Notes under the pieces: generated by a model
Seen by the model: only the letters and a program-made list of their open reading frames with translations
Database searches by the model: none
Told to the model about the DNA's origin: nothing
Made by a program: the position numbers and the translations under genes
Shown: piece after piece, positions 6,831-56,677 of the stretch
How the letters are laid out: every line of letters starts with the position of its first letter
Numbering within the stretch: position 1 is the first letter of the stretch
Assembly: GCA_964422165.1 (NCBI GenBank)
Contig: CAYQZX010000022.1
Coordinates: forward strand, 65,002 to 129,001
Reading direction: 5' to 3'
Length of the DNA: 64,000 nt
Source of the DNA: an uncultured Eubacteriales bacterium
GTDB lineage: Bacteria > Acidobacteriota > Aminicenantia > Aminicenantales > Saccharicenantaceae

Positions 6831-8321
6831 TCAGTGGTGTCCTTTCATGTATTTCATAAATTCTTCAACTCGGGCTGGAGGCTCCGTTTTCAAGCTCACC
6901 AGGATTACTGCGATAAACGACAGAATAAAAGCTGGAACCCATTCTGAAACCATAGCTTTTAAGGGAGGAATCAGGTACCAGACAATTTCGGTGGTGGTGC
7001 CCACCAGAATGCCAGCGATAACTCCTTCCTTAGTTGTTTTTTTCCAGTATAAAGAAAGAAGCATGGCTGGTCCGAAAGCCGCTCCCAGACCACCCCAGGC
7101 GAAGAGAACCAGGTAAAATACCAGTTTGTCGGCATAGGCGGCAAAAAGCAGTGCTACCAGGGCAATGATTAAGGTGAAAGACCGGCTGATGAGGACCAGG
7201 GTTTTTTCTGAAAGCTGTTTATTCTTAGCCAGTATTTTCTGATAGGCATCGCGGACAAGGGCTGAAGAAGCAACCAGAAGCTGAGATGAAGCCGTAGACA
7301 TGATGGCCGCAAAAATGGCCGCTATGGTCAGACCGAACAGAAAAGGATGAAGATGCTGAGAGCCCAGAAGCGGATAGACATTCTCCGGGTCCTTTCCTGG
7401 CAGGTTGGCCACATCCTGATAAAGAGCCCGGCCTGCCAGGCCGATGAAAATTGCTCCCCAGGCCATGAGCACATTCCAAATAGTGCCAATGAGAGCGGTT
7501 TTATTCAGCTTTTCAGGGTCGTCGATGCTCATATACTTGTTAAGGATGTGGGGATTTCCGGGGGAACCGAAGCCGATGCCTACATAGCTGAGCCAGGCTC
7601 CAAAGGTAAGAGAAAAAGTGTCAAGGTATTTCGGGGAAAAAGCCTGCAGAATAGAAAGAAGCTGGCCCAGTCCTCCGAAATGAACAATGGCAATTATTGG
7701 AAGAATCATTAGGGCAAAAATCATGAACAGGGCCTGAAGGGTATCAGTCAAACAGACTGCGAGAAAACCACCCAGAACAGTGTAGAAAATGACTATTCCA
7801 GCGGTTATCAGGATTCCCTGAAGCGGGCTCAGGTTAAAGCTGGCAGCTAAGGATTTACCGCCGGCATTGAACTGAGCTGAGACATAGGCAGTCATGAAAA
7901 TGAGGATTGGGATTAAAGCGAAAATACGGAGCAGGTGTTTGTGATCTTCAAATCTGGACTCAAAATAATCGGGGATAGTAATATCGCCCATCTTACCGGT
8001 GAAATAGCGGAGTCTTTTACCGGGAAAGATGAACATAAAAAGCTCTACTACTATGTAGCCTGCTACTGCCCAGACGGCTGAGACCCCTCGGGTAAAAGCC
8101 AATCCCGAAACTCCTATTAGCAGCCAGGCGGAACGACCAGAAGTCACAGCGGCCATAGCTACCACAAAAGATTTCATCTGGCGTCCACCCAGGAAGAATT
8201 CTCCTATCCCTCTTGAAGAGAACCTGGCTGAAATGATGCCAACGGCAACCATCATCAATACATAGATGACAAAAGCGGCCAAAGACCAGGGATTGGTATT
8301 AAGGCTGAGGGCGTTCATTTT
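6831..8321 (-). CDS. Sodium:solute symporter family (SSS) transporter, PutP/PanF-like
   Basis: About 13 TM helices with an SSS-like N-terminal consensus region. I chose the start at Met 8321 (MNALSLN) because it follows the AAGGAGG RBS, whereas the longer ORF from 8429 has no SD. Confidence 0.75.
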   Translation of the reverse strand, partial: KMNALSLNTNPWSLAAFVIYVLMMVAVGIISARFSSRGIGEFFLGGRQMKSFVVAMAAVTSGRSAWLLIGVSGLAFTRGVSAVWAVAGYIVVELFMFIFPGKRLRYFTGKMGDITIPDYFESRFEDHKHLLRIFALIPILIFMTAYVSAQFNAGGKSLAASFNLSPLQGILITAGIVIFYTVLGGFLAVCLTDTLQALFMIFALMILPIIAIVHFGGLGQLLSILQAFSPKYLDTFSLTFGAWLSYVGIGFGSPGNPHILNKYMSIDDPEKLNKTALIGTIWNVLMAWGAIFIGLAGRALYQDVANLPGKDPENVYPLLGSQHLHPFLFGLTIAAIFAAIMSTASSQLLVASSALVRDAYQKILAKNKQLSEKTLVLISRSFTLIIALVALLFAAYADKLVFYLVLFAWGGLGAAFGPAMLLSLYWKKTTKEGVIAGILVGTTTEIVWYLIPPLKAMVSEWVPAFILSFIAVILVSLKTEPPARVEEFMKYMKGHH

Positions 8322-8542
8322 AGCCCTCCTTTTCTTAAAGTTAAAGCAAAGGCAATAATTAAAATGACTGCTGGCATGATGAATAAGCCGAAATAGGTTG
8401 ACAGCATAGTCACCTCCCTTAGATGGCATAAATTATCATAGCCCGATTTTATCTGCAATTGTTGGGTTCTTATTTGATTTTTATGGAAGAAAAGGCTGAT
8501 TTATGGTATGAATTAAATCTTATCTGTAAACGGAGGCTATTG

Positions 8543-10681
8543 ATGAAAGAGAAAAAAATGATAGTGGTAGTAATTTTCCTCAGCTTTATTTTATTGCTGG
8601 TAGCTTCTGCCTGCCGGCGGTCAGCTCAAGAGAAAGTCAACTATCCCCAGACCAGAAAGGAAGCAGTGGTGGATGATTATTTTGGAGTGGCTGTGCCCGA
8701 CCCCTACCGCTGGCTGGAGGATGATAATTCTGAGGAAACTAAAAAATGGGTAGAAGAACAGAATAAAGTGACCTTTGCTTTTCTGGAAAAAATTCCTTAC
8801 CGGGAGAAAATTAGGTCAAGGCTAAAAGAAATTTACAACTATCCCCGAATGAGCCAGCCTATCAGGGCCGGTGAGTATTATTTCTTCTACAAAAACGATG
8901 GACTTCAAAACCAGTCGGTTATTTACATCCAGAAGGGACTGGAGGGACAGCCTGAAGTTTTCATAGATCCTAACCAGCTCTCACCTGATGGGACGGTCAG
9001 CATTAGATTAGCCGGGTTCTCGCCAGACTTCCGTTATGTAGCTATAACCCGGTCCGAAGCCGGCTCGGATTGGTCAGAAATCAGGGTAATGGAGATTGCT
9101 ACCAGGAAAGAACTGCCGGATCGCATCCGGTGGATTAAATTTTCTGGTGCTGCCTGGTACCAGGATGGGTTTTTCTACAGCGGATATGATAAGCCGGCTC
9201 CAGGGGAGGAGCTTAAAGCCCGCAATGAATTCCAGAAGGTTTTTTACCACCGGCTTGGTGAACCACAGGAGAAAGATGTTCTGGTTTATGAAGACCGGAA
9301 TAACCCGCTTCGCTATTTTAACCTGGGTGTTACTGAAGACCAGAAATACGCCATTCTGGAGGTTTCAGCCGGTACCTCCGGTAACGAGCTTTACTGGAAG
9401 GACTTAAGTCAGAAAAAGGCGGATTTCAAACTTCTTATTCCCGGGTTTGAAAATGATAGCGAAGTCATTGACAACCTGGGCGATAAATTTCTGGTCAGGA
9501 CTAACATTGGCGCTCCTAATTACCGTCTGGTACTGGTAGACCCGAGAAACCCATCCCAGGAAAACTGGAAGGAAATTTTTCCTGAAAAACCAGAAGTGCT
9601 AACCGCGGCTCTGACGGCGGGTGGATATGTTTTTGGAGTTTATCTTCAGGATGCTCACACCAGGGTTTATCAGTATTTACCTGATGGTTCTCTGGTTAGA
9701 GAAGTGGAATTGCCGGCTATTGGGACGGCTTCTGGTTTTGGCGGCTGGCGGGATGATAAAGTGGTCTTTTACACCTTCCAGTCCTTTAACTATCCGCCGA
9801 CTATTTACAAATTTGACCTGGCTTCCGGTCAGTCAGAAATCTTTGCCAGACAGGAAGTAAAGTTCAGGCCAGAAGATTTTGAAGTCAAACAGGTTTTTTA
9901 TCAGAGCAAGGATGGGACCAGGGTACCGATGTTCATTGTTCATAAAAAGGGCCTGATGCTGGACGGCAAAAATCCGGCCTTTCTTACCGGTTACGGCGGT
10001 TTTAACATCAGCCTTCTGCCTTCATTCAACCCGTCGATCGTGCCCATTCTGGAAAACGATGGGGTTTTTGCCCAACCCAACCTCAGGGGTGGGGGTGAGT
10101 ACGGAGAAAACTGGCACCGGGCCGGGATGCTGGAGAACAAACAGAATGTTTTCGACGATTTTATCGCAGCTGCCGAATATTTGATAAAAGAAAAATATAC
10201 CTCTCCGAAGTACCTGGCTATTTCCGGGGCCTCAAACGGAGGTCTGCTTGTTGGAGCGGTAATGACCCAGAGGCCAGAGCTCTTCCGGGTAGCCTTTCCG
10301 GCAGTCGGAGTCCTGGATATGCTCCGCTACCACAAATTTACGGTCGGCTGGGGCTGGGTGGTTGAGTACGGGTCAAGTGAGCGGGAAGACCAGTTCCGAT
10401 ATCTTATAAAATATTCGCCGCTGCACAATGTCCGGGAAGGCGTATGTTATCCTGCCACGCTGATTACCACAGCTGACCATGACGACCGGGTAGTCCCGGC
10501 TCACTCTTTCAAGTTTGCAGCTACTCTTCAAGAAAAACAGAGCTGTCGCAACCCGGTTTTAATCCGAATAGAGACTCGCTCCGGACACGGTTCAAGCAAC
10601 ATCACCAAAGCCATAGATGAGCTGACGGATAAGTATGCTTTTATGTTCTATGTGATGGGACTGAGGCCTATCTACCGCTAA
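8543..10681 (+). CDS. Prolyl oligopeptidase (S9A family), secreted or membrane-anchored
   Basis: N-terminal signal-like hydrophobic segment, a beta-propeller region, and a C-terminal alpha/beta hydrolase with the GASNGGLL nucleophile elbow and catalytic Asp/His (ADHDDRV, SGHG). The start at 8543 is preceded by GGAGG. Confidence 0.85.
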   Translation: MKEKKMIVVVIFLSFILLLVASACRRSAQEKVNYPQTRKEAVVDDYFGVAVPDPYRWLEDDNSEETKKWVEEQNKVTFAFLEKIPYREKIRSRLKEIYNYPRMSQPIRAGEYYFFYKNDGLQNQSVIYIQKGLEGQPEVFIDPNQLSPDGTVSIRLAGFSPDFRYVAITRSEAGSDWSEIRVMEIATRKELPDRIRWIKFSGAAWYQDGFFYSGYDKPAPGEELKARNEFQKVFYHRLGEPQEKDVLVYEDRNNPLRYFNLGVTEDQKYAILEVSAGTSGNELYWKDLSQKKADFKLLIPGFENDSEVIDNLGDKFLVRTNIGAPNYRLVLVDPRNPSQENWKEIFPEKPEVLTAALTAGGYVFGVYLQDAHTRVYQYLPDGSLVREVELPAIGTASGFGGWRDDKVVFYTFQSFNYPPTIYKFDLASGQSEIFARQEVKFRPEDFEVKQVFYQSKDGTRVPMFIVHKKGLMLDGKNPAFLTGYGGFNISLLPSFNPSIVPILENDGVFAQPNLRGGGEYGENWHRAGMLENKQNVFDDFIAAAEYLIKEKYTSPKYLAISGASNGGLLVGAVMTQRPELFRVAFPAVGVLDMLRYHKFTVGWGWVVEYGSSEREDQFRYLIKYSPLHNVREGVCYPATLITTADHDDRVVPAHSFKFAATLQEKQSCRNPVLIRIETRSGHGSSNITKAIDELTDKYAFMFYVMGLRPIYR

Positions 10682-10956
10682 AGATTTTTAAGCCAGACCA
10701 GGTCTGGAAGCGATTCTCGGCCAGCCCCAGTATTACGAAATTTAAAATAGTAACACCGCTTATTATAAATCAGCTCGGGTCCCCGACCCTTTCTCTGGTA
10801 AGCCTGCTTAAAAAAATTGATTTGAGCTTTAATGGAGGTAAGAAAAGAGCTTCTGGTAGAAATGGCCTTCCTCAGGTCAGCAGTCTTAAAATTCTCTTCT
10901 CTCAAAAAATTAAGAGCCCGGGTTTACTTTTAAGATTTATCCCGTCGAGGCAACCC

Positions 10957-12582
10957 TCAATTTTTTATTTCCTTATCCTCGAGTAGCCTTCTCCATTTAT
11001 CCATCAGGGCTCTGTTGAGGTCAAGCGGGGGCTTAGCTTCTTCCGGGAGAAAAGATTTATAGGGGTGGGTCTTTATATATTCTTCGAACTCGGCTCTGAT
11101 TTTTTTGAGTTCTTCCGGTCTGGTCAGCAGATCGATGGCGGTAAGAGCCATAGCTTTAGCCCCGGCGTTTAAACCTTTCCAGGCTATGGAACCGTAGACC
11201 GAGGCTACTGTCGACCAGTGGTGGCCCACTGCTCCGGGCACGTTGGATGGAAAACGGACGGTGGCCGTGGGAGCTACCAGAGTAACTTCCCCGACATCTG
11301 TAGAACCGCCACCAATAAAAGCTTCTCGCGGTTCTCTAAGCTTGCTGACTTCTTTTTTGAGTCCTTCCTCTCTCGCCTGGAGTTCTTTCTGTAGTGCCCG
11401 GGCAAATTCTTCCTCCTCCTTATCCCAGAGCGGCATACCGGTCAATTCGATGTTTTTCTGCAGAAGTTCAGCCAGAGCCCTATTGCCGTGAAATTGATGG
11501 GTAGCACTCAGGACTTTGAACTCAGAGAGCTCGGTGCCAGTGGCTAGGGCAGCCGCCTTAGCGCAGTTAGTTACTCTTTCAAACATCTGTTCTAAATGCT
11601 CGTCGGTGTTCCTGATGTAATACCAGACTGAGGCTCTGTCCGGAACGACATTGGGGGCTTCTCCTCCCTCCATGATGATGTAATGCAGACGGTGGGCGGG
11701 ATTTAAGTGTTCCCGGAGGTAGTTGGTGGCCACATTCATAAGCTCCACCGCATCCAGGGCGCTTCGGCCGGCCCAGGGAGCACCGGCGCTGTGAGCAGTT
11801 TTGCCCTTAAAGGTGAAGACCACCGAAATAACAGCGTTGCCGGAAACTCCGTAAGAGGTACCGAAGTCGCTGGAGCTGTGGTTGTCGAGGACAGCCTCCA
11901 CGTCCTTAAATAGGCCGGCTCTGACCATATAAGGACGGCTGGCCAGGATTTCTTCTGCCGGTGAACCAAAAACTTTGATTGTCCCTTTTATCCCGAACCT
12001 TTCCATGGCCTTTTTGGTGGCAATAGCGGCGGCTACGGCGGCTGTGCCCATGGTGTTATGACCGCAACCATGTCCGGGAGCTCCTTCTATCAGCGGGTCT
12101 TTTTTGGGAATTCTCCCTTTCTGGGAAAGCCCGGGCAGGGCGTCAAATTCTCCCAGAAAACCGATAACCGGCCGGCCTTCTCCGTAAGTAGCCACAAAGC
12201 AGGTCGGAAGGCCGGCCAGACCTCTTTCCACCCGAAATCCTTCCTTTTCCAGGGTCTCGGCTAGGAGGGCTGAAGATTTATACTCCTGAAGTCCGAGCTC
12301 AGCGAAGCTCCAGATGCGGTCTGAAATCTTTCCAAAATACTCAATCTGTTCTGGCTGATTGAGCCATTCCAGGACATATTTTTTTCCCCGGCTGATATTT
12401 AGGGATTGCTTTTTGCTTTCAGCCTGAATCTTTTGAGCAGCCGACAGGTAATCCCCGGCAGTCAACAAAATTAGCAGTATCAGAAAAAAATTAATCAGTA
12501 AGAATCTATGTCCAGGTCTCCTGAAGCGAGGTTTAAAAATTTCCGGGATTTTCTTCTCTTCCAGAATTTTGATCAGGTTCAT
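10957..12582 (-). CDS. M20 family metallopeptidase/amidohydrolase (AbgB/aminoacylase-like), with an N-terminal membrane anchor or signal
   Basis: GHGCGHN metal-binding motif, M20 dimerisation-domain-like middle region and an N-terminal hydrophobic helix. Its 3' end overlaps the next gene by 4 bp. Confidence 0.75.
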   Translation of the reverse strand: MNLIKILEEKKIPEIFKPRFRRPGHRFLLINFFLILLILLTAGDYLSAAQKIQAESKKQSLNISRGKKYVLEWLNQPEQIEYFGKISDRIWSFAELGLQEYKSSALLAETLEKEGFRVERGLAGLPTCFVATYGEGRPVIGFLGEFDALPGLSQKGRIPKKDPLIEGAPGHGCGHNTMGTAAVAAAIATKKAMERFGIKGTIKVFGSPAEEILASRPYMVRAGLFKDVEAVLDNHSSSDFGTSYGVSGNAVISVVFTFKGKTAHSAGAPWAGRSALDAVELMNVATNYLREHLNPAHRLHYIIMEGGEAPNVVPDRASVWYYIRNTDEHLEQMFERVTNCAKAAALATGTELSEFKVLSATHQFHGNRALAELLQKNIELTGMPLWDKEEEEFARALQKELQAREEGLKKEVSKLREPREAFIGGGSTDVGEVTLVAPTATVRFPSNVPGAVGHHWSTVASVYGSIAWKGLNAGAKAMALTAIDLLTRPEELKKIRAEFEEYIKTHPYKSFLPEEAKPPLDLNRALMDKWRRLLEDKEIKN

Positions 12583-13937
12583 GGTTTTTTCTCCTTTTCC
12601 CGTCTCTTGAATTTTTCGAGCAGTTCAGTATAGCGGTTGCTCAGGTCAACCTCTTTCCCTTCAATGAAGACTTTTTCTATCCTGGTGCCCAGCTCCAGCA
12701 GGTCGCCATCGGCAAGGACAAGGTTAGCCAGTTTGCCCTTCTCCAGGCTTCCCAGATCTTTATCCACCCCGAAAATTTCAGCCGGGTAAATGGTTACTGC
12801 CTTAAGGGCTTCTTTTCGGTCAAGGCCAAAGGCAGCGGCTTTAGCTGCATGGTAGGGGAGATCCTTGGCAGCGCTTGAGCTTGAAGAGGAAAAAGCTATC
12901 TTTATCCCGGCTCTGTTAAGGATACCGGGGTTAAGGAAAAGCGCATCATAGCCATCTTCCCAGAGTGGCGGCAGTTCATAAAGAGAACCAATGAGGCAGG
13001 GGATGCCGGATTTTTTTATTTCTTCAGCCACCTTAAATCCCTGATGAACACCATAGAAAATAGCTTTTATTTTTTCTTCCTGAACGAACTTGATAGTCTG
13101 GATGATGTCCTTATCGGCCTGGACAGAGAAGATAACCGGTAGTTCACCTTTAACTACTGGTAATAAAAAATGAGAAGCTTCGTCGAAATCAGGTCTGGGC
13201 AGAAGCAGGTTTTTCTCTGCTTCAGCTCTTCTTTTTTCATACATCCGGGCTTTATGGAAGAGTTCTTTGAGTTCAGCCAGAGCCCGCTCGGTCGAGACTG
13301 CTCCTGGCTGTCCCATCCCCATAAATCCCCGGCGTCCACCTCTTATTCCAGGGAGCTCCACGACCATAGCCAGGCTTTCTTTTATGGCCATCTGCCGGTT
13401 GGTCCAGCCATGGAGCTTGATTAAGGTGCTCTGGCCGGAGATAAGTCCACCAGAAGGAGCCACTACCGCCGCTAAGATGCCGTTAGCCCTGGCAATCGGA
13501 ATGTGCATTGAATCATATTTTAAGGCTTCAATAGCCTTAACCTGGGGATTTATCCGGCCTGTTTCTCTGTTGTCCACTGTGGCTGCTACCCCACTTATTT
13601 CGACTAGCCCCATGGAGGAGTAACTGTCTATCATTCCAGGATAGGCGGTCAGTCCTTTAGCTTCCACTATTCTGGTTCCGGGTGGAATGGAGACTGTAGT
13701 TCCAATTTCTGCAATCCGACCATTTTTTATTAATATAGTTCCCTCGGGTATTTCCTCCCCAACCACCGGGACAATTTTGACCTTGACGATGGCCAAAACT
13801 TCGCTGTCTTCGGGCCCAGCCGCTTTTACAGGGTTAATCCCTCCCATCAGCAGCCCAACCAGCAGGATTGAATACAGGATAAGTCTGGAGTGGGAGGTTT
13901 TTTGTTTTATGGCTGATTTTATTTTCTTGAGGTTCAT
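12579..13937 (-). CDS. Secreted amidohydrolase-superfamily paralogue with a degenerate metal site (GMIDSYS in place of HxH)
   Basis: Signal peptide, then GLTAYPGMIDSYS at the position where paralogue 13937..15247 has GIIDTHTH. The C-terminal TIM-barrel segments are conserved. Start overlaps (ATGA) the end of the gene at 13937. Confidence 0.65.
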   Translation of the reverse strand: MNLKKIKSAIKQKTSHSRLILYSILLVGLLMGGINPVKAAGPEDSEVLAIVKVKIVPVVGEEIPEGTILIKNGRIAEIGTTVSIPPGTRIVEAKGLTAYPGMIDSYSSMGLVEISGVAATVDNRETGRINPQVKAIEALKYDSMHIPIARANGILAAVVAPSGGLISGQSTLIKLHGWTNRQMAIKESLAMVVELPGIRGGRRGFMGMGQPGAVSTERALAELKELFHKARMYEKRRAEAEKNLLLPRPDFDEASHFLLPVVKGELPVIFSVQADKDIIQTIKFVQEEKIKAIFYGVHQGFKVAEEIKKSGIPCLIGSLYELPPLWEDGYDALFLNPGILNRAGIKIAFSSSSSSAAKDLPYHAAKAAAFGLDRKEALKAVTIYPAEIFGVDKDLGSLEKGKLANLVLADGDLLELGTRIEKVFIEGKEVDLSNRYTELLEKFKRREKEKKP

Positions 13938-15247
13938 CAGTTTCCTCCTTTCTTAATAGCTGCGGCTTCTCTTTCCTGAAGCAACTTCTCCCGATCGAAA
14001 TAAACTTCACCCTCAATAATGGTCAGGTCGCAGCGAGTGTAGGCGCTCATCGGATGTTCGCTGAAGAGAGCCAAGTCGGCCTGTTTACCAATCTCAATAC
14101 TTCCGACTATCTGGTCCACTCCTAACTGTTTGGCGGCGTTTATGGTTATCATTTTCAGGGCTTCATCAGGAGTAACTCCGTATTTAACCGCCTTTCCGGC
14201 CTCGTTGAACAGCCGTCGAATTCTTTCGCTGCTATCGGAGTTAATAGAAACCAGAATACCTCTTTGAGCACAGTAGGCGGCGTTGTAGGCAATGCCTTCG
14301 GCCGCTTCCATTTTGTAGGCCCAGCTGTCGATGAAGACCGAAACCCCGACTCCAGCTTCCAGAAGTTCATCAGTAATTTTGTAAGCTTCCCAGGCGTGTT
14401 CAAAAGCCCCTATTTTGAAACCGAACTCCCTGGCCAGGTTCAAAAACTCCACCATCTCAGTAGCTACGTAGGCGTGACAGCGGGCAATCAGCCGGCCGCG
14501 GAGCAGTTCAGCCAGGGTTTCTAACCTCAGGTCTTTTCTCGGTGGAATCAGATTAGCCGGGGGATTTTTGGATTTTTTCAGTTTTTCATAGCGGTCCCAT
14601 TCTGCCATATAATCTCTGGCTTTAAGCAGCTCCCGGCGAATGATGGCATTTGCCCCCATTCTGGTAGCTGGATAACGCTGGGGCCGGCCAGGCAGAAGAG
14701 TTCGATTGGACTGTTTAACATTTTCCCCCAGGGCAAATTTCAGAGTAGGAAAAGCCTCTTTTACAATTAGCTCCTCGGATGGTTTCCCCCATTTAAGTTT
14801 CAGGACTACGTTGACTCCCCCGATGGGGTTGGCGCTCCCGTGCATGGTATGGACCATGGTCACTCCACCGGTTAGAGCGGTGAAAATTGAGGAGTCATCG
14901 GCGTTGATAACATCAGCCATTCTAACTTCGGGGGTGATGGCTTCAGTCCCTTCATTCGTTCCGGAAAGAGCGATATGGGTGTGAGTGTCAATAATCCCGG
15001 GAATAAGATACCGACCGTTGGCTTCAATCACTCTGGTGCCGGGTGGAGCTGTCAGGTTCTGGCCTATCTGTTTAATCATACCGTTGACAATTAAAACATC
15101 ACCTTTTGGTATCACTCCTGAAGTTACAGTCATCACAGTGGCGTTTTTTATCAGCAGGTTGCCTCCGGCCAGCAAGCTGGAAGCCGAAAAACCCAGAATG
15201 GTCAAAATGGTTGAAAGAACTACTATCTTTTTTAACGAGGTTCTCAT
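13937..15247 (-). CDS. Secreted amidohydrolase (metal-dependent hydrolase, intact HxH motif)
   Basis: Signal peptide, PGIIDTHTHIALSG (canonical first metal-binding HxH), and later His/Asp residues in TIM-barrel positions. Confidence 0.7.
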   Translation of the reverse strand: MRTSLKKIVVLSTILTILGFSASSLLAGGNLLIKNATVMTVTSGVIPKGDVLIVNGMIKQIGQNLTAPPGTRVIEANGRYLIPGIIDTHTHIALSGTNEGTEAITPEVRMADVINADDSSIFTALTGGVTMVHTMHGSANPIGGVNVVLKLKWGKPSEELIVKEAFPTLKFALGENVKQSNRTLLPGRPQRYPATRMGANAIIRRELLKARDYMAEWDRYEKLKKSKNPPANLIPPRKDLRLETLAELLRGRLIARCHAYVATEMVEFLNLAREFGFKIGAFEHAWEAYKITDELLEAGVGVSVFIDSWAYKMEAAEGIAYNAAYCAQRGILVSINSDSSERIRRLFNEAGKAVKYGVTPDEALKMITINAAKQLGVDQIVGSIEIGKQADLALFSEHPMSAYTRCDLTIIEGEVYFDREKLLQEREAAAIKKGGN

Positions 15248-16581
15248 TGACCTTTCTCCTCATAATTAAAAACAATACCATCAACCAAGACTCTGACCAC
15301 TTTGGCCTTTTCGTCGAATAACTCGCCGCGGGTCAGGATAAGGTTGGCGATTTTGCCTGGCTCCAGGGTTCCGAGCTGTTTCTCAAGACCAAGCCAGCGG
15401 GCCGGTTCTATGGTTAAGGCCCTCAGGGCAGCTTCCTGAGAAAGTCCAGCTTTAATCGCCATCCTGAGATTTTTCAAGAAGCTGGAGTCAGACAGCCCGA
15501 AGCTGGTCAGAGCAAAAGCAATTTTTTCCCGGTGCAGGATGGCGGCATTGGCTGGATAAATTTCAGCCTCTGCTCTTTTCCTGGCTGCATCACCCTGTTG
15601 TGCATAGAGGCTGGTGCTGGGTGGCCGGAAATCCAGGTTGAGGAGCAGGGGAACCCTGGAATTTTTTAGCAGCTCTAGAACCCTCCAGGCTTCATTACAT
15701 CCGGTGAGCAGTCCGTTCAGTCGGAATTCAGCAATCAGACGCAGAGCTCTTTTGATGTCTTCCTGATTGTTACACTGAAAAACTACTGGTTTCTTCTCGA
15801 CCACGAACGGAATGAGGGCTTCTAAAAACGGGTCAAATTCTGGCCGTTTCAGGTTCAGGGGATTAGAATTATACCTTTTCCAGTGGTCAGAATAATGAAG
15901 GGTGTCGTAAAATTTCTGCCTCAAAAAAGCTACTGTGCCCATCAGGCTTGAAGGATAAAGACCTCGTTCAGTAGTGAAATTGATATGTAAAGCCCAGGGC
16001 TGCTTTAAGACCATAGTCTGAAGCTGGTCGCCGTTAAGGTTTAGAACCACACTTTGTCCTTGAAAAATTCCCCGGTTGGGAGCCACCACCACAGTGGTAA
16101 TTCCAACCTTATGATAGGATTCTATGGTCTGCTTTTTTGGTTTAAGCTGTTTTAAAACCAGAAGTTCCGGAAATTGCTGAGGTTCGGCCGGCTGAGTCAG
16201 GGCCTGGAAAAAATCTTCCGGTTGCCGGGGCTCCGACGGCTCCGGTGCTTCCAGAAACAGGTTGGTATGAGCCGAGATCAAACCCGGATAGGCCGTCAGA
16301 CCCGAGGCCTCGATGACTTCAGCGTCGGGAGGAATTTTGATTTTATCAGCCGGGCCTACAGCCTCAATCAGCCCATCCCGAACCAGGATTGTACCTTTGT
16401 CCAAAATCGGGCCGGCAACCGGGATTATCCGGCAGTTAACCAGAGCGTAGGCTGGTTTGACTTCAGCATTGGCTGACTGAGCAACCCAGCTTAAAAAGGT
16501 CATCGCGGAGACGACCAGAATGAATATGACCAGTGCTCCCCGATTTCTCCGGGGCTTGGTTTTTTCAGATTGCATCTTCAT
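15244..16581 (-). CDS. Secreted amidohydrolase-superfamily paralogue with a degenerate metal site (ISAHTN in place of HxH)
   Basis: Signal peptide and GLTAYPGLISAHTN. It is most similar to 12579..13937. It is the first gene of the three-gene overlapping set. Confidence 0.65.
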   Translation of the reverse strand: MKMQSEKTKPRRNRGALVIFILVVSAMTFLSWVAQSANAEVKPAYALVNCRIIPVAGPILDKGTILVRDGLIEAVGPADKIKIPPDAEVIEASGLTAYPGLISAHTNLFLEAPEPSEPRQPEDFFQALTQPAEPQQFPELLVLKQLKPKKQTIESYHKVGITTVVVAPNRGIFQGQSVVLNLNGDQLQTMVLKQPWALHINFTTERGLYPSSLMGTVAFLRQKFYDTLHYSDHWKRYNSNPLNLKRPEFDPFLEALIPFVVEKKPVVFQCNNQEDIKRALRLIAEFRLNGLLTGCNEAWRVLELLKNSRVPLLLNLDFRPPSTSLYAQQGDAARKRAEAEIYPANAAILHREKIAFALTSFGLSDSSFLKNLRMAIKAGLSQEAALRALTIEPARWLGLEKQLGTLEPGKIANLILTRGELFDEKAKVVRVLVDGIVFNYEEKGQ

Positions 16582-17153
16582 GAACCTCCTTCTTGAAAAA
16601 GAATTTTCTCGGCCAGCTCTTAAAACCAGCGTTTAGAAGCAGAGAAGAGAGAATTCTTAAAGAGTAAATCTGAACGTTTTGGCAATACTGGTAAAGCCAC
16701 TGGTGGGAAATCGGACAGGTGACTTTAGCTCCCGTAAAAAAAAAATTGATAGAAGACTGGTTTTGTGGCCTTCTACTCCTGAGCTTCGAAATTAACGCCG
16801 GTTTCTGCATAAAATTCTTTAGAAAAAATATCTTATTTCTTGTCGCTTATTTGTCAATAAAAAAAATTCTTTCTGGTTGAGACAAAGACCAGGTTTTTAG
16901 GCCAGAAGGCTGAGCCTGAAAGAGGAAAGAGTTAAGGAAGCCTGGTTTTTGTGCCGGGAAGCAAGAAAAAAATTATTGAAAGATGAAGGGGAATAATAGG
17001 GAAACGGTAAAAAAAAATAAAGGAATCAAATTTGATTTTAGTGGTAAGATTATTTCGGTATGGCCAGTCTCTACTTGTCTTAACTTTACAAATAGAATAA
17101 AATTCAGGACAGTACCATAAAGTAGATAAACTTTCTGGTTAGAGGAGAACAGT

Positions 17154-17615
17154 ATGAAAAAAAAGATGGTTGTTCTCTTATTAATTTCTTTAGGCCTGCT
17201 TTTCATCAATCTGCCAGCTCAGGCCCAGCAGAACAAGTTTGGTCTCGGGATAATCCTGGGAGAACCAACCGGACTGATAGCCAAGTACTGGACCAGCCGA
17301 ACTACGGCCTTTGATGTGGCCGGGTCCTGGTCGTTTGAAGGGAAAAATTCCTTCCACCTCCATGCCGATTATCTTTTTCACAGTTTCAATCTGATAAAAG
17401 TGGACAGTGGTAAGCTGCCTTTCTACTATGGCTTCGGATTCAGGGTAAGCCTGAAAGATGATACTCGACTTGGTATCAGAATACCGGTCGGCTTGAGCTA
17501 TATGTTTGAAAAAACCCCGATTGACATCTTCATGGAGATCGGGCCGGTTATGGATATAATCCCGGCTACTGTATTTCGAGTTTCTGCTTTTATAGGGTTT
17601 AGGTATTATTTTTGA
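17154..17615 (+). CDS. Small outer-membrane beta-barrel protein
   Basis: Signal peptide ending AQA-QQ, alternating hydrophobic beta-strand pattern, and a C-terminal ...GFRYYF aromatic terminus typical of OMPs. Confidence 0.55.
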   Translation: MKKKMVVLLLISLGLLFINLPAQAQQNKFGLGIILGEPTGLIAKYWTSRTTAFDVAGSWSFEGKNSFHLHADYLFHSFNLIKVDSGKLPFYYGFGFRVSLKDDTRLGIRIPVGLSYMFEKTPIDIFMEIGPVMDIIPATVFRVSAFIGFRYYF

Positions 17616-17832: not shown

Positions 17833-19863
17833 ATGCTTTCCACAATTGAAAGAATTATCCTGGCCCTGGTGGTGGGGCTAACTTTCTTCCTGTTCTTTAT
17901 TCCGGTATTCCGGAGAATCTGGATTTTAACCCGTCTTAAAGCTGAAAACCGGTTCGATTCTCTTTTTCGCCGCTTTTTTTACACGCTGTCGCGGGTTTTT
18001 TTCCAGCTCTGCACCTTAAAAAACGAAAGGCCCTGGACCGGTTTAGCTCATGCCCTGATTTTCTATGGAGCCCTGACTTTTGACACCATGACCGTTAATC
18101 ATTTGATAGAGGGTTATGTTGATGGTTTCTACCTTTTTGGTTCGACCTGGTTCGGGAAGCTTTTTTCTGCTTCAGTGGAAGTCTTTTCCCTGATGGTACT
18201 GGCCGGATTGCTCTTTTTTATTTTCAAAAGGTTTGTTCTCAAACCAACCGCTTACAACACCGGCTCCAGAGATTCTGCCTTGATTTATCTTTTTATCTTT
18301 CTGGCTGTGTCTACCTATCTTTTGTTCAAAATGATGGTAGTGGTTCAGCATCCAACTGAAGGCAACTGGAGCTTTCTCAGCCAGTTTTTAGCCAGGCTCC
18401 TGAAGCTTTCAGATTTTTCCGGCGAAGCTCTGGAGTTTTACCTGAAGTTTGCCTACTGGCTTCACACCCTGGTGGTTTTAGCCTTTATCTCTTATGTGCC
18501 TCATTCAAAGTATTTTCATCTTTTCGCCGGGCCGGTTAATCTTTTTTTCCGAAAACACCGTCCCACTGCTGAAATGCCAGTCCTGGACCTGGAAGCAGCC
18601 GAAAATTTCGGAGTTGAGAGGGTGAACGATTTTACCTGGAAAGACGGACTGGATGCCCTGGCCTGTGTGGAGTGCGGTCGCTGTCAGGATGTCTGCCCGG
18701 CTTTTTTGAGCGGGAAAGCCCTCTCACCCAAGATGGTCATAGTTAATCTGGAAAAACATCTTCTGGCTTCATATCCGAAGTTAAAAGCAGGGAAAGCACA
18801 AGAGCTTCCGACTCTTGTCCCTCAGGTTTTCAAGGAAGAGGAAATCTGGACCTGTACTACCTGCGGAGCCTGCCTTCACGTCTGTCCTTTTGACATTGAA
18901 CATCCACCAAAGCTCCTCAGTCTGAGACAGAATCTGGTCCTGGCTAAGGGTCATTTTCCCGTCGAACTTAAAAGTTTCTTCCAGAAGCTGGAAACTTTCG
19001 GAAATCCATGGGGATTTCCCCCTTCTAAGAGAGCAGAACTGGCCTCTGAGCTTGGGGTTCCGACCTTAAGCCAGTTTCCGCAAGCTGACTACCTTCTCTG
19101 GCTGGGCTGTTTTGGTTCCTTTGATGAGCATGGCCAGAAAACAACCAGAGCCATGGTGAAGATTCTTAAGGAAGCCGGGTTAAAATTCGCCATCCTAGGA
19201 GAAGAAGAGCACTGCTGTGGCGATTCCGCCCGTAGGCTGGGCAATGAATACCTGTTTCAATGCCTGGCTCTCAAAAACCTGAAAACTCTGGCCAGAAAAA
19301 GAATTTCCAGGCTGATTACTTTCTGCCCCCACGGCTACAATACTTTCAAGAATGAATATCCTGCCTTACTGGAGATACTGCCAGATTTTAGTTGCGAGGA
19401 AAAAGAGAATCTCAGAGCCATAAAAGTCATTTCTCATGTGGAACTGCTGGCAGAATTGATAAGGAAGAAGAGGGTAAGGCTTAAAGTCGTAGGTGAAGGG
19501 GAAACCTATACTTTTCATGATTCCTGTTATTACGGACGTCATAACGGGCTTTTCAGCCAGCCCAGAGAAATTCTGGCGACAGCTCTGGGAGGTCGGATTA
19601 AAGAACTCGGCCGTTCGAGAGAGCACAATTTTTGCTGTGGAGCTGGTGGCGGTTTGATGTGGACCGAAGAGAAAGCGGGAAAGCGAATCAATCACCTGCG
19701 GAGCGAGGAGATAATAAGAAACGGCAGCCAGCTGGTTGCCACCTCCTGTCCCTTCTGCCTGACCATGCTTCAAGACGGGTTGCGAGATAAAGGAGCTGAA
19801 AATATCAGGGTGCTGGATGTAGCTCAGGTTATGGCTCAGGCGATAGACCGTGATGAAAATTAA
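17833..19863 (+). CDS. Membrane-anchored iron-sulfur oxidoreductase: N-terminal 5-TM His-containing (NarI/HdrE/DsrM-like) domain fused to an HdrD/DsrK/GlpC-like module (2x[4Fe-4S] plus 2 CCG domains)
   Basis: TM helices in residues 1-230 with conserved His. CVECGRCQDVCP and CTTCGACLHVCP ferredoxin motifs. CCGDSARR and CCGAGGG plus CPFC cysteine-rich CCG repeats. Confidence 0.7.
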   Translation: MLSTIERIILALVVGLTFFLFFIPVFRRIWILTRLKAENRFDSLFRRFFYTLSRVFFQLCTLKNERPWTGLAHALIFYGALTFDTMTVNHLIEGYVDGFYLFGSTWFGKLFSASVEVFSLMVLAGLLFFIFKRFVLKPTAYNTGSRDSALIYLFIFLAVSTYLLFKMMVVVQHPTEGNWSFLSQFLARLLKLSDFSGEALEFYLKFAYWLHTLVVLAFISYVPHSKYFHLFAGPVNLFFRKHRPTAEMPVLDLEAAENFGVERVNDFTWKDGLDALACVECGRCQDVCPAFLSGKALSPKMVIVNLEKHLLASYPKLKAGKAQELPTLVPQVFKEEEIWTCTTCGACLHVCPFDIEHPPKLLSLRQNLVLAKGHFPVELKSFFQKLETFGNPWGFPPSKRAELASELGVPTLSQFPQADYLLWLGCFGSFDEHGQKTTRAMVKILKEAGLKFAILGEEEHCCGDSARRLGNEYLFQCLALKNLKTLARKRISRLITFCPHGYNTFKNEYPALLEILPDFSCEEKENLRAIKVISHVELLAELIRKKRVRLKVVGEGETYTFHDSCYYGRHNGLFSQPREILATALGGRIKELGRSREHNFCCGAGGGLMWTEEKAGKRINHLRSEEIIRNGSQLVATSCPFCLTMLQDGLRDKGAENIRVLDVAQVMAQAIDRDEN

Positions 19864-54938: not shown

Positions 54939-55075
54939 GGAAAAAATGGAGACACAATCTATATTTCCTATTTTTGCAATAGATTTTCTATGAAAGTATG
55001 AAAGTGAGAAGATTGACTGTGCTGTCTCTGATTTGAATCTGATTTTATTTAGGTTGTCATCAGAAAGGAGGTGCC

Positions 55076-56677
55076 ATGGCTGAGATAGCTTTGATAAATG
55101 GACGGGTCTGGACTGCTAACCCTGTTCAGCCTGAGGCTGAAGCCCTGGCTGTAGCCCATAATAGAATAATTAAAGTAGGAGCGACCTCTGAAATTAAGAA
55201 GCTAATTGGTTCAAAAACCAGAGTAATTGACCTTAAGGGGGCACTGGTACTTCCAGGCTTTATAGATGCCCATACCCATTTCTTAAAAGGCGGGTTGTCT
55301 CTGCGTTCAGTTCAGCTGCGGGATTGTCGCACCCGCCAGGAGTTCATAAGCCGGATTAAAGATCGAGCCAGAGAATTACCCCCGGGTTCCTGGATATTAA
55401 ATGGTGACTGGGATCATGAACAGCTGGAATCACCTGAGCTGCCCTCAAAAGACTGGATAGATGCCGTAAGCCCAGCTCATCCGGTCTGTGTAAACCGGTT
55501 TGACGGCCACATGGTTCTGGTTAATAGCCTGGCTCTGAAACTGGCTAAAATTGACCGAAACACTATTTCCCCTCCAGGTGGCGAAATCGTCAAAGACCCT
55601 GAGACCGGAGAACCAACGGGTATTCTGAAGGAGGCTGCCGCTGAGTTGGTTTACCGCATTATTCCTGAACCGACCTTAAGTGAAAAAATTGAGGCCGTCA
55701 AGGCGGCTTGCCAGGAAGCTGGCCGCTACGGAGTTACTTCAATTCACGACATGTCTGAGGCCACCAGTTTTGAAGTCTACCAGGAGCTACTGAGGTCCGG
55801 TCAGCTGACAGCCCGGCTTTATGTCTATATCCAGATAACGGAGATTGAAAGTTTCCTGCGGCTCAGACTGAAATCGGGCTTCGGACATCCTTTTTTAAGG
55901 CTGGCCGGTTTGAAAGGTTTTGTAGACGGTTCTCTGGGTTCCAGCACGGCCCTGTTTTTTGAGCCCTACAGCGACAATCCAGAGTCTTATGGTCTGCTGG
56001 CTTCTCATATGTTTCCTGAAGGAATTATGGAGAAAAGACTCCGCCAGGCTGATCAGGCCGGACTTCAGGTAGCCATTCACGCCATAGGCGACCGGGCCAA
56101 CGCTCTGCTTCTTGATATGATGGAAAAAATCATTCAGGAAAACGGGGAAAGAGAGCGGCGGTGGCGGGTGGAGCATGCTCAGCATTTAAGAGCTACTGAT
56201 ATAGAACGCTTTGGCCGTTTGAAACTCATCGCTTCGATTCAACCCTATCATGCTATAGATGATGGCTGTTGGGCTGAGCGAAAAATAGGCCCGGAAAGAG
56301 CCAGAACCACTTATGCTTCAAACTCCCTGAATCGGGCCGGAGCCGTTCTGGTGTTTGGTTCGGACTGGACCGTAGCTCCTCTTAACCCCCTCACCGGTAT
56401 TTACGCAGCTGTAACCAGAAGAACCCTGGATGGCCGAAATCCTGACGGCTGGATTCCTGAAGAAAAAATATCAGTTGAGGAAGCCATTAAGAGCTACACC
56501 ATCAGGGCAGCCTATGCTGAATTTTCCGAAAAAGAGAAAGGTTCGCTGGAGCCCGGCAAACTGGCTGACCTGGTGGTCATAGACCGCGACCTCTTCCAAA
56601 TCCCCCCTGAAGATATTCTTAAAGCCAGAGTTATCCTGACCATGGTCGACGGCCGGGTTATCTATGATATTCTATGA
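55076..56677 (+). CDS. Amidohydrolase-3 family metal-dependent hydrolase (YtcJ-like)
   Basis: LPGFIDAHTHF HxH motif, VAIHAIGD, and the FGSDW C-terminal Asp motif. Confidence 0.75.
   Translation: MAEIALINGRVWTANPVQPEAEALAVAHNRIIKVGATSEIKKLIGSKTRVIDLKGALVLPGFIDAHTHFLKGGLSLRSVQLRDCRTRQEFISRIKDRARELPPGSWILNGDWDHEQLESPELPSKDWIDAVSPAHPVCVNRFDGHMVLVNSLALKLAKIDRNTISPPGGEIVKDPETGEPTGILKEAAAELVYRIIPEPTLSEKIEAVKAACQEAGRYGVTSIHDMSEATSFEVYQELLRSGQLTARLYVYIQITEIESFLRLRLKSGFGHPFLRLAGLKGFVDGSLGSSTALFFEPYSDNPESYGLLASHMFPEGIMEKRLRQADQAGLQVAIHAIGDRANALLLDMMEKIIQENGERERRWRVEHAQHLRATDIERFGRLKLIASIQPYHAIDDGCWAERKIGPERARTTYASNSLNRAGAVLVFGSDWTVAPLNPLTGIYAAVTRRTLDGRNPDGWIPEEKISVEEAIKSYTIRAAYAEFSEKEKGSLEPGKLADLVVIDRDLFQIPPEDILKARVILTMVDGRVIYDIL

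What the first reader, a model, noticed from the sequence alone, without database searches (positions are those of the whole stretch)
12579..16581. Three tandem, translationally coupled secreted amidohydrolase paralogues, of which only the middle one keeps the HxH metal site
The three consecutive genes overlap by ATGA. All three products have signal peptides and align over their full length. At the canonical first metal-binding position the middle gene (13937..15247) has GIIDTHTHIAL, while the flanking paralogues have GMIDSYSSMGL (12579..13937) and GLISAHTNLFL (15244..16581). Both flanking paralogues therefore lack the two His ligands of the binuclear metal centre. This pattern suggests one catalytic subunit flanked by two catalytically dead, possibly scaffolding or substrate-binding, pseudo-enzyme subunits. 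Such a heteromeric extracellular amidohydrolase complex, embedded in a peptidase operon, is not a textbook arrangement.
Basis: seen in the sequence. Interest (0 to 1): 0.6.

Follow-up and report, generated by a model that had tools for sequence, protein, structure and literature searches.

The report
Split three-module amidohydrolase, one live module
Three adjacent genes encode related secreted amidohydrolase-fold proteins of which only the middle one keeps its metal site, and the same three modules occur in the same order, often fused into one protein, across at least four bacterial phyla, so they most likely work as one uncharacterised enzyme.

Summary
The genes are on the minus strand, in transcription order A (16581..15244), B (15247..13937), C (13937..12579), then a fourth coupled gene D (12582..10957, M20 amidohydrolase). 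A/B and C/D overlap by ATGA. B/C overlap by one base (TGATG). B keeps every canonical ligand position (H89, H91, K170, H258, H284, D338). C has none of them. A keeps only the first His of the HxH motif.

- The A-B-C order recurs in essentially all of 80 related genome loci from Acidobacteriota and Gemmatimonadota, while the flanking genes vary.
- Of the 148 best cluster representatives, 41 are single-chain A-B-C fusions and 38 are A-B fusions, always in that order. Named examples come from Planctomycetota, Armatimonadota and Vicinamibacterales.
- The B module keeps all five scored ligands in 70/70 split and 76/78 fused copies. A and C modules never do, and they carry no conserved replacement.

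So this is the split form of a widespread three-module secreted amidohydrolase with one catalytic and two degenerate modules. Physical association, stoichiometry and substrate are untested. No curated family or paper covering it was found.

The parts
16830..16857 (-). Promoter-like site (TTGACA, 16-nt spacer, TAAGAT) about 250 nt upstream of gene A. It is a possible operon promoter.
   Evidence: 10 of 12 consensus matches. It is a consensus match only, and the number of such sites in the region is not above the shuffle expectation.
15244..16581 (-). Gene A: first module, a degenerate amidohydrolase-fold protein (445 aa from 16581; the likelier start is the ATG at 16575, giving 443 aa). It has a signal-peptide-like N-terminus ending ...SANA/EV. 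The HxH position reads H105-T-N107 (16261..16269), with Q269, G294 and S360/F361 at the other ligand positions. Residues 113-136 (16174..16245) are a disordered Pro/Glu/Gln-rich insert.
   Evidence: Amidohydro_1, 44 bits against a cutoff of 25; AF2 pLDDT 83; best PDB match 3ooq, TM-score 0.85 normalised to the target.
13937..15247 (-). Gene B: second module, the catalytic amidohydrolase (436 aa), with a signal-peptide-like N-terminus. Ligand candidates are D87-T-H89-T-H91 (14975..14989), K170 with E175 and N176 (14720..14740), H258 and Y260 (14468..14476), H284 (14396..14401) and D338 (14234..14242). It overlaps A by ATGA.
   Evidence: 70.6 bits; full-length match to 3ooq, E 1e-58 and 7e-67; all these residues invariant in 70/70 orthologues.
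12579..13937 (-). Gene C: third module, a degenerate amidohydrolase-fold protein (452 aa), with a signal-peptide-like N-terminus. The HxH position reads Y106-S-S108 (13614..13622), with S271, G296 and S352 at the other ligand positions. Residues 109-151 (13485..13613) are highly conserved within the C family but were modelled with low confidence. The gene shares one base with B (TGATG).
   Evidence: 43.4 bits; pLDDT 70; best PDB match 3ooq.
10957..12582 (-). Gene D: secreted M20-family amidohydrolase (541 aa; a member of its 90% cluster is named 'aminobenzoyl-glutamate utilization protein B' by JGI, i.e. AbgB-like). It overlaps C by ATGA. It is a lineage-specific fourth gene of the operon, not part of the conserved trio.
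   Evidence: Peptidase_M20 plus M20_dimer; TIGR01891, 221 bits against a cutoff of 154; present after C in only 9 of the 80 related loci.

Best explanation
Genes A, B and C encode the three parts of one exported amidohydrolase.

B is the only catalytic part. By alignment it has the ligand set of a binuclear amidohydrolase-superfamily centre: HxH, an invariant Lys (probably the carboxylated bridging ligand), two His and an Asp.

A and C are ancient paralogues of B. They keep the barrel plus beta-sandwich fold but have lost the metal centre and most polar active-site residues. They act as permanent non-catalytic partners, for assembly, stability or substrate access, probably in 1:1:1 ratio.

In this Saccharicenans-like Aminicenantes bacterium the three modules are separate polypeptides. 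They are made from translationally coupled genes, and each carries its own signal peptide. In many other bacteria the same modules are fused in the same order into one chain with a single signal peptide.

In this lineage a coupled M20 amidohydrolase (D) follows the trio. A prolyl oligopeptidase and a PutP-like proline symporter lie next to the operon. This suggests the substrate is a peptide or an N-acyl or C-terminal amino-acid amide.

Shown: paralogy, ligand loss, conserved order, fusions, export signals.
Inferred: physical complex, stoichiometry, metal content, inactivity of A and C, substrate.
For: - Paralogy and shared fold. All three best match the same solved structure, 3ooq, over full length. 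The AF2 models of A and C match it too.
- Ligand pattern. B keeps H89, H91, H258, H284 and D338 in 70/70 split orthologues and 76/78 fused copies. A and C keep them in 0/77 and 0/44 fused copies, and in no genuine split copy. Three apparent exceptions among split A are A-B fusion ORFs that were aligned through their B part.
- Polar versus fold-determining residues. Of 46 polar columns invariant in B, only 8 are kept in A and 6 in C. Of 36 apolar, Gly or Pro columns, 16 and 18 are kept.
- Rate of change. B evolves more slowly: median identity to the window copy is 48%, against 37% for A and 38% for C.
- Conserved block. A-B-C order on one strand is found in essentially all 80 loci from several classes of Acidobacteriota and from Gemmatimonadota. 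No flanking gene family is present in more than 12 loci.
- Fusions in genomes. A-B single ORFs occur in L058, L068 and L078, and a B-C single ORF occurs in L080. Each has one signal peptide and a low-complexity linker.
- Fusions in the protein library. Among the 148 best 50%-identity cluster representatives there are 41 A-B-C, 38 A-B and 3 B-C fusions, all in the same order. Some are named from Vicinamibacterales, Gemmataceae, Phycisphaerales and Armatimonadota.
- In Phycisphaerales the A-B fusion is followed by a separate 442-aa amidohydrolase gene in the position of C (that gene was not classified with the A/B/C profiles).
- Translational coupling and good Shine-Dalgarno sequences in the window.
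- Export signals on all three proteins and on their orthologues.
- Local context: M20 gene, S9 prolyl oligopeptidase, PutP-like symporter.
Against: - No experiment or complex model shows that A, B and C bind one another. Both structure-prediction jobs were single-chain.
- The closest solved relative, 3ooq, is a single-module protein with intact ligands, so the fold does not need partners in principle.
- The C model is only moderately confident (pLDDT 70).
- K170 as a carboxylated bridging ligand rests on invariance and on alignment to 3ooq, not on a characterised enzyme.
- The substrate inference rests on neighbours that are conserved only within this lineage, and on family matches far below their cutoffs.
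- The window's A keeps one His (H105).
Confidence: 0.75

Rival explanations
1. A and C are accessory factors rather than permanent subunits. For example, they could be dedicated maturation or chaperone proteins for folding or metal loading of B after Sec export, or substrate-capture proteins that hand substrate to B and associate only transiently.
For: A and C keep the fold but not the chemistry. All three are exported separately, so B must fold and load metal outside the cytoplasm. C has a strongly conserved segment, residues 109-151, that is poorly modelled in isolation. This would fit a region that becomes ordered only on binding a partner or ligand.
Against: Covalent fusion in a fixed order is frequent: 79 of the 148 representatives are A-B or A-B-C fusions. 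This argues for permanent 1:1 proximity rather than catalytic or transient action. The active-site pockets of A and C are not conserved, which argues against a shared small-molecule binding function.
Confidence: 0.13
2. The three proteins are independent enzymes acting on different substrates. A and C would use a non-canonical, metal-poor or metal-free catalytic mechanism.
For: All three exceed the Pfam Amidohydro_1 threshold. The window's A keeps H105. Some amidohydrolase-superfamily members work with one metal or none (own knowledge).
Against: No ligand-position column is conserved within A or within C across phyla, apart from a Gly at the H284 position. Only 8 (A) and 6 (C) of the 46 polar columns invariant in B survive. 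In these data A and C are not seen apart from B, and they are often fused to it.
Confidence: 0.05
3. A and C are functionless relics of tandem duplication that are drifting towards loss.
For: They have lost the catalytic residues and evolve faster than B.
Against: Intact full-length ORFs with signal peptides are maintained across several phyla at 20-40% identity. 36 (A) and 51 (C) columns remain at least 93% conserved. The modules are retained inside fused proteins.
Confidence: 0.03

Closest known systems
PDB 3OOQ, 'amidohydrolase from Thermotoga maritima MSB8' (structural-genomics entry with no published function found)
   Same: It is the best and only full-length solved relative of all three proteins: B at E 1e-58 (7e-67 with a profile), A at 7e-28, C at 2e-27. 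The AF2 models of A and C superpose on it with TM-scores of 0.85 and 0.80, normalised to the target. It shares B's HxH, K, H, H and D positions, and an N-E-x-T...TP-x-V loop after strand 1.
   Different: It is a single-module protein of 396 aa with no evident signal peptide; the match to B starts at its residue 6. Its ligands are intact. Nothing in the entry indicates degenerate partner modules. Its function is unknown, so it gives no substrate.
COG1228-type amidohydrolase peptidases: Cc2672 (L-Lys/L-Arg carboxypeptidase, 3mtw), Sgx9260b/c prolidase and carboxypeptidase (3feq, 3n2c, 3mkv, 3be7), Caulobacter Xaa-Pro dipeptidase (NCBIfam NF051886), and ochratoxin amidohydrolase ADH3 (8ihq)
   Same: Same superfamily, with the same beta-sandwich plus barrel layout. 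They are among the nearest functionally characterised structures by sequence and fold. They hydrolyse C-terminal amide or peptide bonds, which fits the peptidase-rich neighbourhood here.
   Different: The matches are local or weak. NF051886 scores 47-59 bits against a cutoff of 500, and TM-scores are about 0.5. Those enzymes are, to my knowledge, homo-oligomers of active subunits with no degenerate paralogous partners.
Pseudomonas PyrC', an inactive dihydroorotase-like subunit of the aspartate transcarbamoylase complex (own knowledge)
   Same: It is an amidohydrolase-fold paralogue that has lost its metal ligands and serves as an obligatory structural subunit of an enzyme complex.
   Different: PyrC' partners an unrelated enzyme (PyrB) in the cytoplasm. 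Here the dead modules partner their own active paralogue, there are two of them, they are exported, and they are often fused to it.
CRMP/DPYSL proteins, dihydropyrimidinase-like and non-catalytic (own knowledge; they appear as N-terminal matches)
   Same: Amidohydrolase-fold proteins that lack the metal ligands, are non-enzymatic and form hetero-oligomers among paralogues.
   Different: They are eukaryotic cytoskeletal signalling adaptors. They are not partners of an active hydrolase and have no operon or fusion relationship.
AbgA/AbgB, the M20 p-aminobenzoyl-glutamate hydrolase (relevant to gene D only)
   Same: D matches TIGR01891 above its cutoff. A member of D's 90% cluster is named aminobenzoyl-glutamate utilization protein B by JGI.
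   Different: There is no AbgA-like partner here. D carries a signal-peptide-like N-terminus and is coupled to the A-B-C trio only in this lineage.

Membership tests
Amidohydrolase superfamily (Pfam Amidohydro_1, PF01979) | Sequence match above Pfam's gathering score. | tested here: met
   A 44.4, B 70.6 and C 43.4 bits, against a cutoff of 25.
Amidohydrolase superfamily (Pfam Amidohydro_1, PF01979) | Beta/alpha barrel with an N-/C-terminal beta-sandwich, resembling solved members. | tested here: met
   (A: pLDDT 83, 3ooq TM-score 0.85 normalised to the target). (C: pLDDT 70, TM-score 0.80). B aligns with 3ooq over residues 30-420.
Catalytically competent binuclear amidohydrolase (HxH, bridging Lys, His, His, Asp) | All metal-ligand positions occupied, tested in protein B. 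| tested here: met
   H89, H91, K170, H258, H284 and D338 are present and invariant in 70/70 orthologues. Their identity as ligands is inferred from alignment to 3ooq and from general knowledge of the superfamily. Metal content was not tested.
Catalytically competent binuclear amidohydrolase (HxH, bridging Lys, His, His, Asp) | All metal-ligand positions occupied, tested in proteins A and C. | tested here: not met
   A has H105 and N107, no Lys at the K170 column, then Q269, G294 and S360/F361. C has Y106 and S108, no Lys at the K170 column, then S271, G296 and S352. In fused homologues 0/77 A domains and 0/44 C domains carry the five-ligand set.
Pseudoenzyme partner of an active paralogue | Retained fold, lost catalytic residues, and conservation elsewhere in the protein. 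| tested here: met
   36 (A) and 51 (C) columns are at least 93% conserved across phyla, while the ligand columns vary.
Pseudoenzyme partner of an active paralogue | Demonstrated lack of catalytic activity, and physical association with the active paralogue. | not testable with these tools
   Only indirect evidence is available: conserved gene order and fusions in the same order. No multimer prediction or experiment was possible.
Xaa-Pro dipeptidase / Cc2672-type carboxypeptidase (NCBIfam NF051886 and relatives) | Score above the equivalog cutoff. | tested here: not met
   48, 59 and 47 bits against a cutoff of 500. Fused homologues also score far below it.
Imidazolonepropionase HutI (the name JGI gives to many members) | TIGR01224 score above its cutoff of 298. 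| tested here: not met
   38-58 bits.
M20 'amidohydrolases' subfamily TIGR01891 (gene D) | Score above the curated cutoff, plus an M20 dimerisation domain. | tested here: met
   (221.5 bits against 153.75). (M20_dimer, 42.9 bits against 21).

The most novel reading that the evidence does not exclude
A-B-C would be a widespread but undescribed class of exported 'three-in-one' amidohydrolases found in at least Acidobacteriota, Gemmatimonadota, Planctomycetota and Armatimonadota. In this reading the two dead modules are not mere scaffolds: they build a composite substrate channel or active site with B. One candidate element is the strongly conserved loop of C (residues 109-151), which is unstructured when C is modelled alone. 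It retains the N-x-E-T...P-x-V motif shared with B and 3ooq, and it might reach into B. The family would then act on a substrate class not yet assigned to the superfamily.
Probability: 0.3. Interest if true: 0.7.

Novelty: new variant of a known kind. Interest (0 to 1): 0.6.

Why it matters
Amidohydrolase-superfamily proteins are usually annotated one gene at a time as 'amidohydrolase family protein' or 'imidazolonepropionase-like'. The results here show that in a large group (1,904 cluster representatives at E <= 1e-30) the functional unit is probably a fixed triplet of paralogous modules, only one of which can do the chemistry.

Four consequences follow:
- It changes how these genes should be annotated and counted in metabolic reconstructions of soil and sediment Acidobacteriota, Gemmatimonadota and Planctomycetota.
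- It warns that expressing B alone may fail.
- It adds a prokaryotic case of an enzyme keeping dead copies of itself as partners, with split and fused forms available for direct comparison.
- It marks an abundant exported enzyme family whose substrate is still unknown.

Tried and rejected
- Literature. Seven full-text searches found nothing on this family, on 3OOQ, or on two-domain secreted amidohydrolases. The phrase 'Secreted enzyme, contains two amidohydrolase related domains' appears only as a database name on one B orthologue.
- Curated families. No NCBIfam model comes near its cutoff for A, B, C or the fused forms.
- An apparent B-C fusion, P0295 (720 aa), was rejected. Its C part breaks into out-of-frame sequence, and the matching locus L012 shows C split by a frameshift.
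- Three 'A' sequences that seemed to carry all five ligands are the A-B fusion ORFs of L058, L068 and L078, aligned through their B half. They were excluded.
- A conserved neighbour that might reveal the substrate was sought, but none is shared by more than 12 of the 80 loci.
- A profile of B against the PDB was run to anchor K170 on a characterised enzyme. Only 3ooq aligns over the barrel.
- A complex prediction was not possible. Only single-chain jobs are offered and both were used.
- Foldseek against AFDB50, intended to find cultured organisms with fused forms, was unavailable.
- dN/dS was not attempted. The orthologues with DNA in hand are too diverged, and the near-identical copies are uninformative.

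Full report
WHAT IS THERE

The interval holds three ORFs on the minus strand. In transcription order they are A (16581..15244, 445 aa), B (15247..13937, 436 aa) and C (13937..12579, 452 aa). A fourth ORF follows directly: D (12582..10957, 541 aa).

A/B and C/D overlap by ATGA. B/C share one base (TGATG). Each start is preceded by a good Shine-Dalgarno sequence. For A, the spacing from AAGGAGG favours the second ATG, at 16575, and other gene callers also give 443 aa. A promoter-like TTGACA-16-TAAGAT lies at 16857..16830; this is a consensus match only.

The window is identical over these genes to a 298-kb JGI metagenome contig. The nearest named relatives are Candidatus Saccharicenans / Aminicenantes, in Acidobacteriota.

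PARALOGY, FOLD AND EXPORT

The three proteins align over nearly their whole length. Identities are A-B 24% (E 1e-21), A-C 29% (2e-41) and B-C 27% (2e-27). All pass the Pfam Amidohydro_1 threshold.

All three have the same best and only full-length solved relative: 3OOQ, an uncharacterised Thermotoga maritima amidohydrolase. E-values are 1e-58 for B, 7e-28 for A and 2e-27 for C.

The AF2 model of A has pLDDT 83 and that of C has pLDDT 70. Both superpose best on 3ooq, with TM-scores of 0.85 and 0.80 normalised to the target.

A, B, C and D all begin with a basic stretch followed by a hydrophobic segment. So do 111/114, 108/108 and 112/112 close orthologues of A, B and C (this is a heuristic). 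Export is therefore likely. Whether the destination is the periplasm or the medium is not known.

THE METAL SITE

B carries D87-T-H89-T-H91, K170 (with E175 and N176), H258 (with Y260), H284 and D338. These align with the same residues of 3ooq.

A reads S-A-H105-T-N107, then Q269, G294 and S360/F361. C reads D-S-Y106-S-S108, then S271, G296 and S352.

That His is not conserved among A orthologues. It is present in 58 of 105 close orthologues and 28 of 82 across phyla.

In 70 B orthologues from two phyla, every one of the ten B residues listed above is invariant. In A and C the same columns vary freely. The one exception is a Gly at the H284 position, conserved in both, which suggests that A and C descend from one already-degenerate ancestor. 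Consistent with this, a distance tree places 3ooq with B, C forms a single clade, and A-C distances are smaller than A-B or B-C distances (the tree did not recover an exclusive A+C clade, so this grouping is tentative).

Of 46 polar columns invariant in B, A keeps 8 and C keeps 6. Of 36 apolar, Gly or Pro columns, they keep 16 and 18. The fold has been kept and the chemistry lost. B also evolves more slowly, with median identity to the window copy of 48% against 37% and 38%.

IS THE TRIO CONSERVED?

A scan of one genome per GTDB species with an A-family profile found 389 relatives, and the best 80 loci were kept. ORFs in these loci were classified with profiles built for A, B, C and D.

Every locus with enough downstream DNA has A, then B, then C on one strand. 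This holds in Aminicenantes, Pyrinomonadaceae/Blastocatellia, Vicinamibacteria, Terriglobia, Bryobacterales/Solibacteraceae, Thermoanaerobaculia and Gemmatimonadota, with A identity as low as 32-35%. The exceptions are L080, which has the order B-C-A, and L067 and L076, where the third gene scores about equally as A or C.

No flanking gene family occurs in more than 12 of the 80 loci. The M20 gene D follows C in only 9 loci. Another Aminicenantes lineage instead has a secreted D-aminoacylase-like protein there. The trio is therefore the conserved unit, and the peptidase context is local to this lineage.

FUSIONS

In L058, L068 and L078 (Terriglobia and Solibacteraceae), A and B are a single ORF. 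It has one N-terminal signal peptide and an acidic linker, and the B part has no signal peptide of its own. C follows as a separate gene. In L080 (Vicinamibacterales), B and C are one ORF joined by an Ala/Pro-rich linker.

A search of 1.84 billion cluster representatives with the A profile gave 1,904 hits at E <= 1e-30. Of the best 148, 64 are A alone, 41 are A-B-C single chains (1266-1589 aa), 38 are A-B (850-1200 aa) and 3 are B-C. All are in the gene order seen here.

In these fused proteins the B domain keeps all five scored ligands in 76 of 78 cases. A domains do so in 0 of 77 and C domains in 0 of 44.

Named examples come from Vicinamibacterales, Gemmataceae, Phycisphaerales and Armatimonadota. 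In Phycisphaerales the A-B fusion is followed by a separate 442-aa amidohydrolase gene in the position of C (I did not classify that gene with the profiles).

Fusion of the same modules in the same order in many lineages is classical Rosetta-stone evidence that the separate proteins act together.

MOST LIKELY MECHANISM

B is the catalytic module, probably with a binuclear centre bridged by carboxylated K170. That assignment is inferred. A and C are permanent non-catalytic partner modules, probably in 1:1:1 ratio, and are needed for assembly, stability or substrate access. In this organism they are exported separately and must assemble after export.

The substrate is unknown. Three observations point weakly to peptides or N-acyl / C-terminal amino-acid amides:
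- The nearest characterised relatives, all distant, are carboxypeptidase- or dipeptidase-type amidohydrolases.
- The locally coupled gene is an M20 amidohydrolase.
- The neighbours are an S9 prolyl oligopeptidase and a PutP-like sodium/proline symporter, which scores 411 bits, below its 515-bit cutoff.

Confidence is about 0.75 that A, B and C form one functional unit with only B catalytic, and about 0.3 for the substrate class.

RIVALS

- A and C as transient maturation or capture factors: about 0.13. The frequent fusions argue against this.
- Three independent enzymes with unusual chemistry in A and C: about 0.05. No catalytic constellation is conserved in either.
- Decaying relics: about 0.03. 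Conservation across phyla, intact ORFs and retention inside fusions argue against this.

COMPARISON WITH WHAT IS KNOWN

All three proteins meet the tests for membership of the amidohydrolase superfamily and of the 3ooq-like subgroup. The tests for HutI and for Xaa-Pro dipeptidase / Cc2672-type families are not met.

The principle of a dead amidohydrolase-fold paralogue serving as a structural subunit is known from Pseudomonas PyrC' in the aspartate transcarbamoylase complex and from CRMPs (own knowledge).

What differs here is that two dead modules accompany their own active paralogue, in a fixed order, exported, and either split or fused. Seven literature searches and the curated family libraries gave no description of this arrangement. 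Only a database name on one orthologue hints at it: 'Secreted enzyme, contains two amidohydrolase related domains'.

I rate it a new variant of a known kind, with interest 0.6. It is not revolutionary, but it is a real, widespread and apparently undescribed architecture. It has direct consequences for annotation and for anyone trying to express these enzymes.

LIMITS

- No multimer modelling or experiment was possible, so association is inferred.
- Signal peptides were judged by a simple heuristic.
- Only the best 80 loci and the best 148 representatives were inspected.
- Cluster representatives may over-represent long, fused members.
- The C model is of moderate quality.

Noticed in passing
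window 16174..16245 (A residues 113-136): A carries a Pro/Glu/Gln-rich insert (PEPSEPRQPEDFFQALTQPAEPQQ) after strand 1, modelled as disordered (pLDDT below 50). It sits where B, C and 3ooq have a conserved N-E-x-T...(I/V)-x-P-x-V loop, so A alone has lost that loop.
   Followed up: partly
window 13485..13613 (C residues 109-151): This segment of C is among the most conserved in the C family, with many invariant residues in 36 orthologues. Several, including D122, E125, G127, N130 and R150, stay conserved across phyla. AF2 nevertheless models it with pLDDT below 50. It may become ordered only against a partner module.
   Followed up: partly
L014, L017, L019, L021, L024, L026-L029, L031-L055 and others; P0089 residues 431-543: In many lineages A has an extra C-terminal domain of about 110 aa, with a weak Big_10 / Ig-like Pfam hit (E 0.006). 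It is homologous to the A-B spacer in at least 7 fused proteins. The window's A lacks it.
   Followed up: partly
L017, L018, L021-L024, L027, L029, L046 and L080, immediately downstream of C: Another Aminicenantes lineage has a secreted protein of about 610 aa right after C, where this window has the M20 gene. It is D-aminoacylase-like by resemblance; Pfam gives only Amidohydro_3, and its HTH motif is intact. Different downstream amide hydrolases seem to be swapped in behind the same trio.
   Followed up: partly
window 6831..10681: A PutP-like sodium/proline symporter lies on the minus strand (best NCBIfam match TIGR02121, 411 bits, below its 515-bit cutoff). It is divergent from an S9 prolyl oligopeptidase on the plus strand, which converges on the operon. 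The S9 gene's true start is probably downstream of the listed TTG at 8459: the JGI call is 712 aa, and an MKEKKM... start is followed by a signal- or lipoprotein-like stretch. Together these look like a proline-peptide utilisation neighbourhood, shared by only about 8 related loci.
   Followed up: partly
window 55043..56674 (+): A further, distantly related amidohydrolase-family ORF lies elsewhere in the window (E 1e-9 to 6e-11 against the A, B and C profiles). It was not examined.
   Followed up: no
window 17154..17615 (+) and 17833..19863 (+): Divergent from the operon are two genes. One is a small 153-aa protein with a signal-peptide-like N-terminus and a DUF3996 match. The other is a 676-aa protein with precomputed Pfam hits to a NarI-like membrane domain (weak), 4Fe-4S ferredoxin domains and CCG domains, in the manner of HdrD-like oxidoreductases. 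Neither is obviously related to the trio.
   Followed up: no
L012 (CAVTOI010000003.1), about 9736..10949; protein P0295: The 720-aa 'B-plus-C' protein in the database comes from a gene call that runs from B through part of C into out-of-frame sequence, on a contig where C is split by a frameshift. It is an assembly or gene-calling artefact, not a real fusion.
   Followed up: yes
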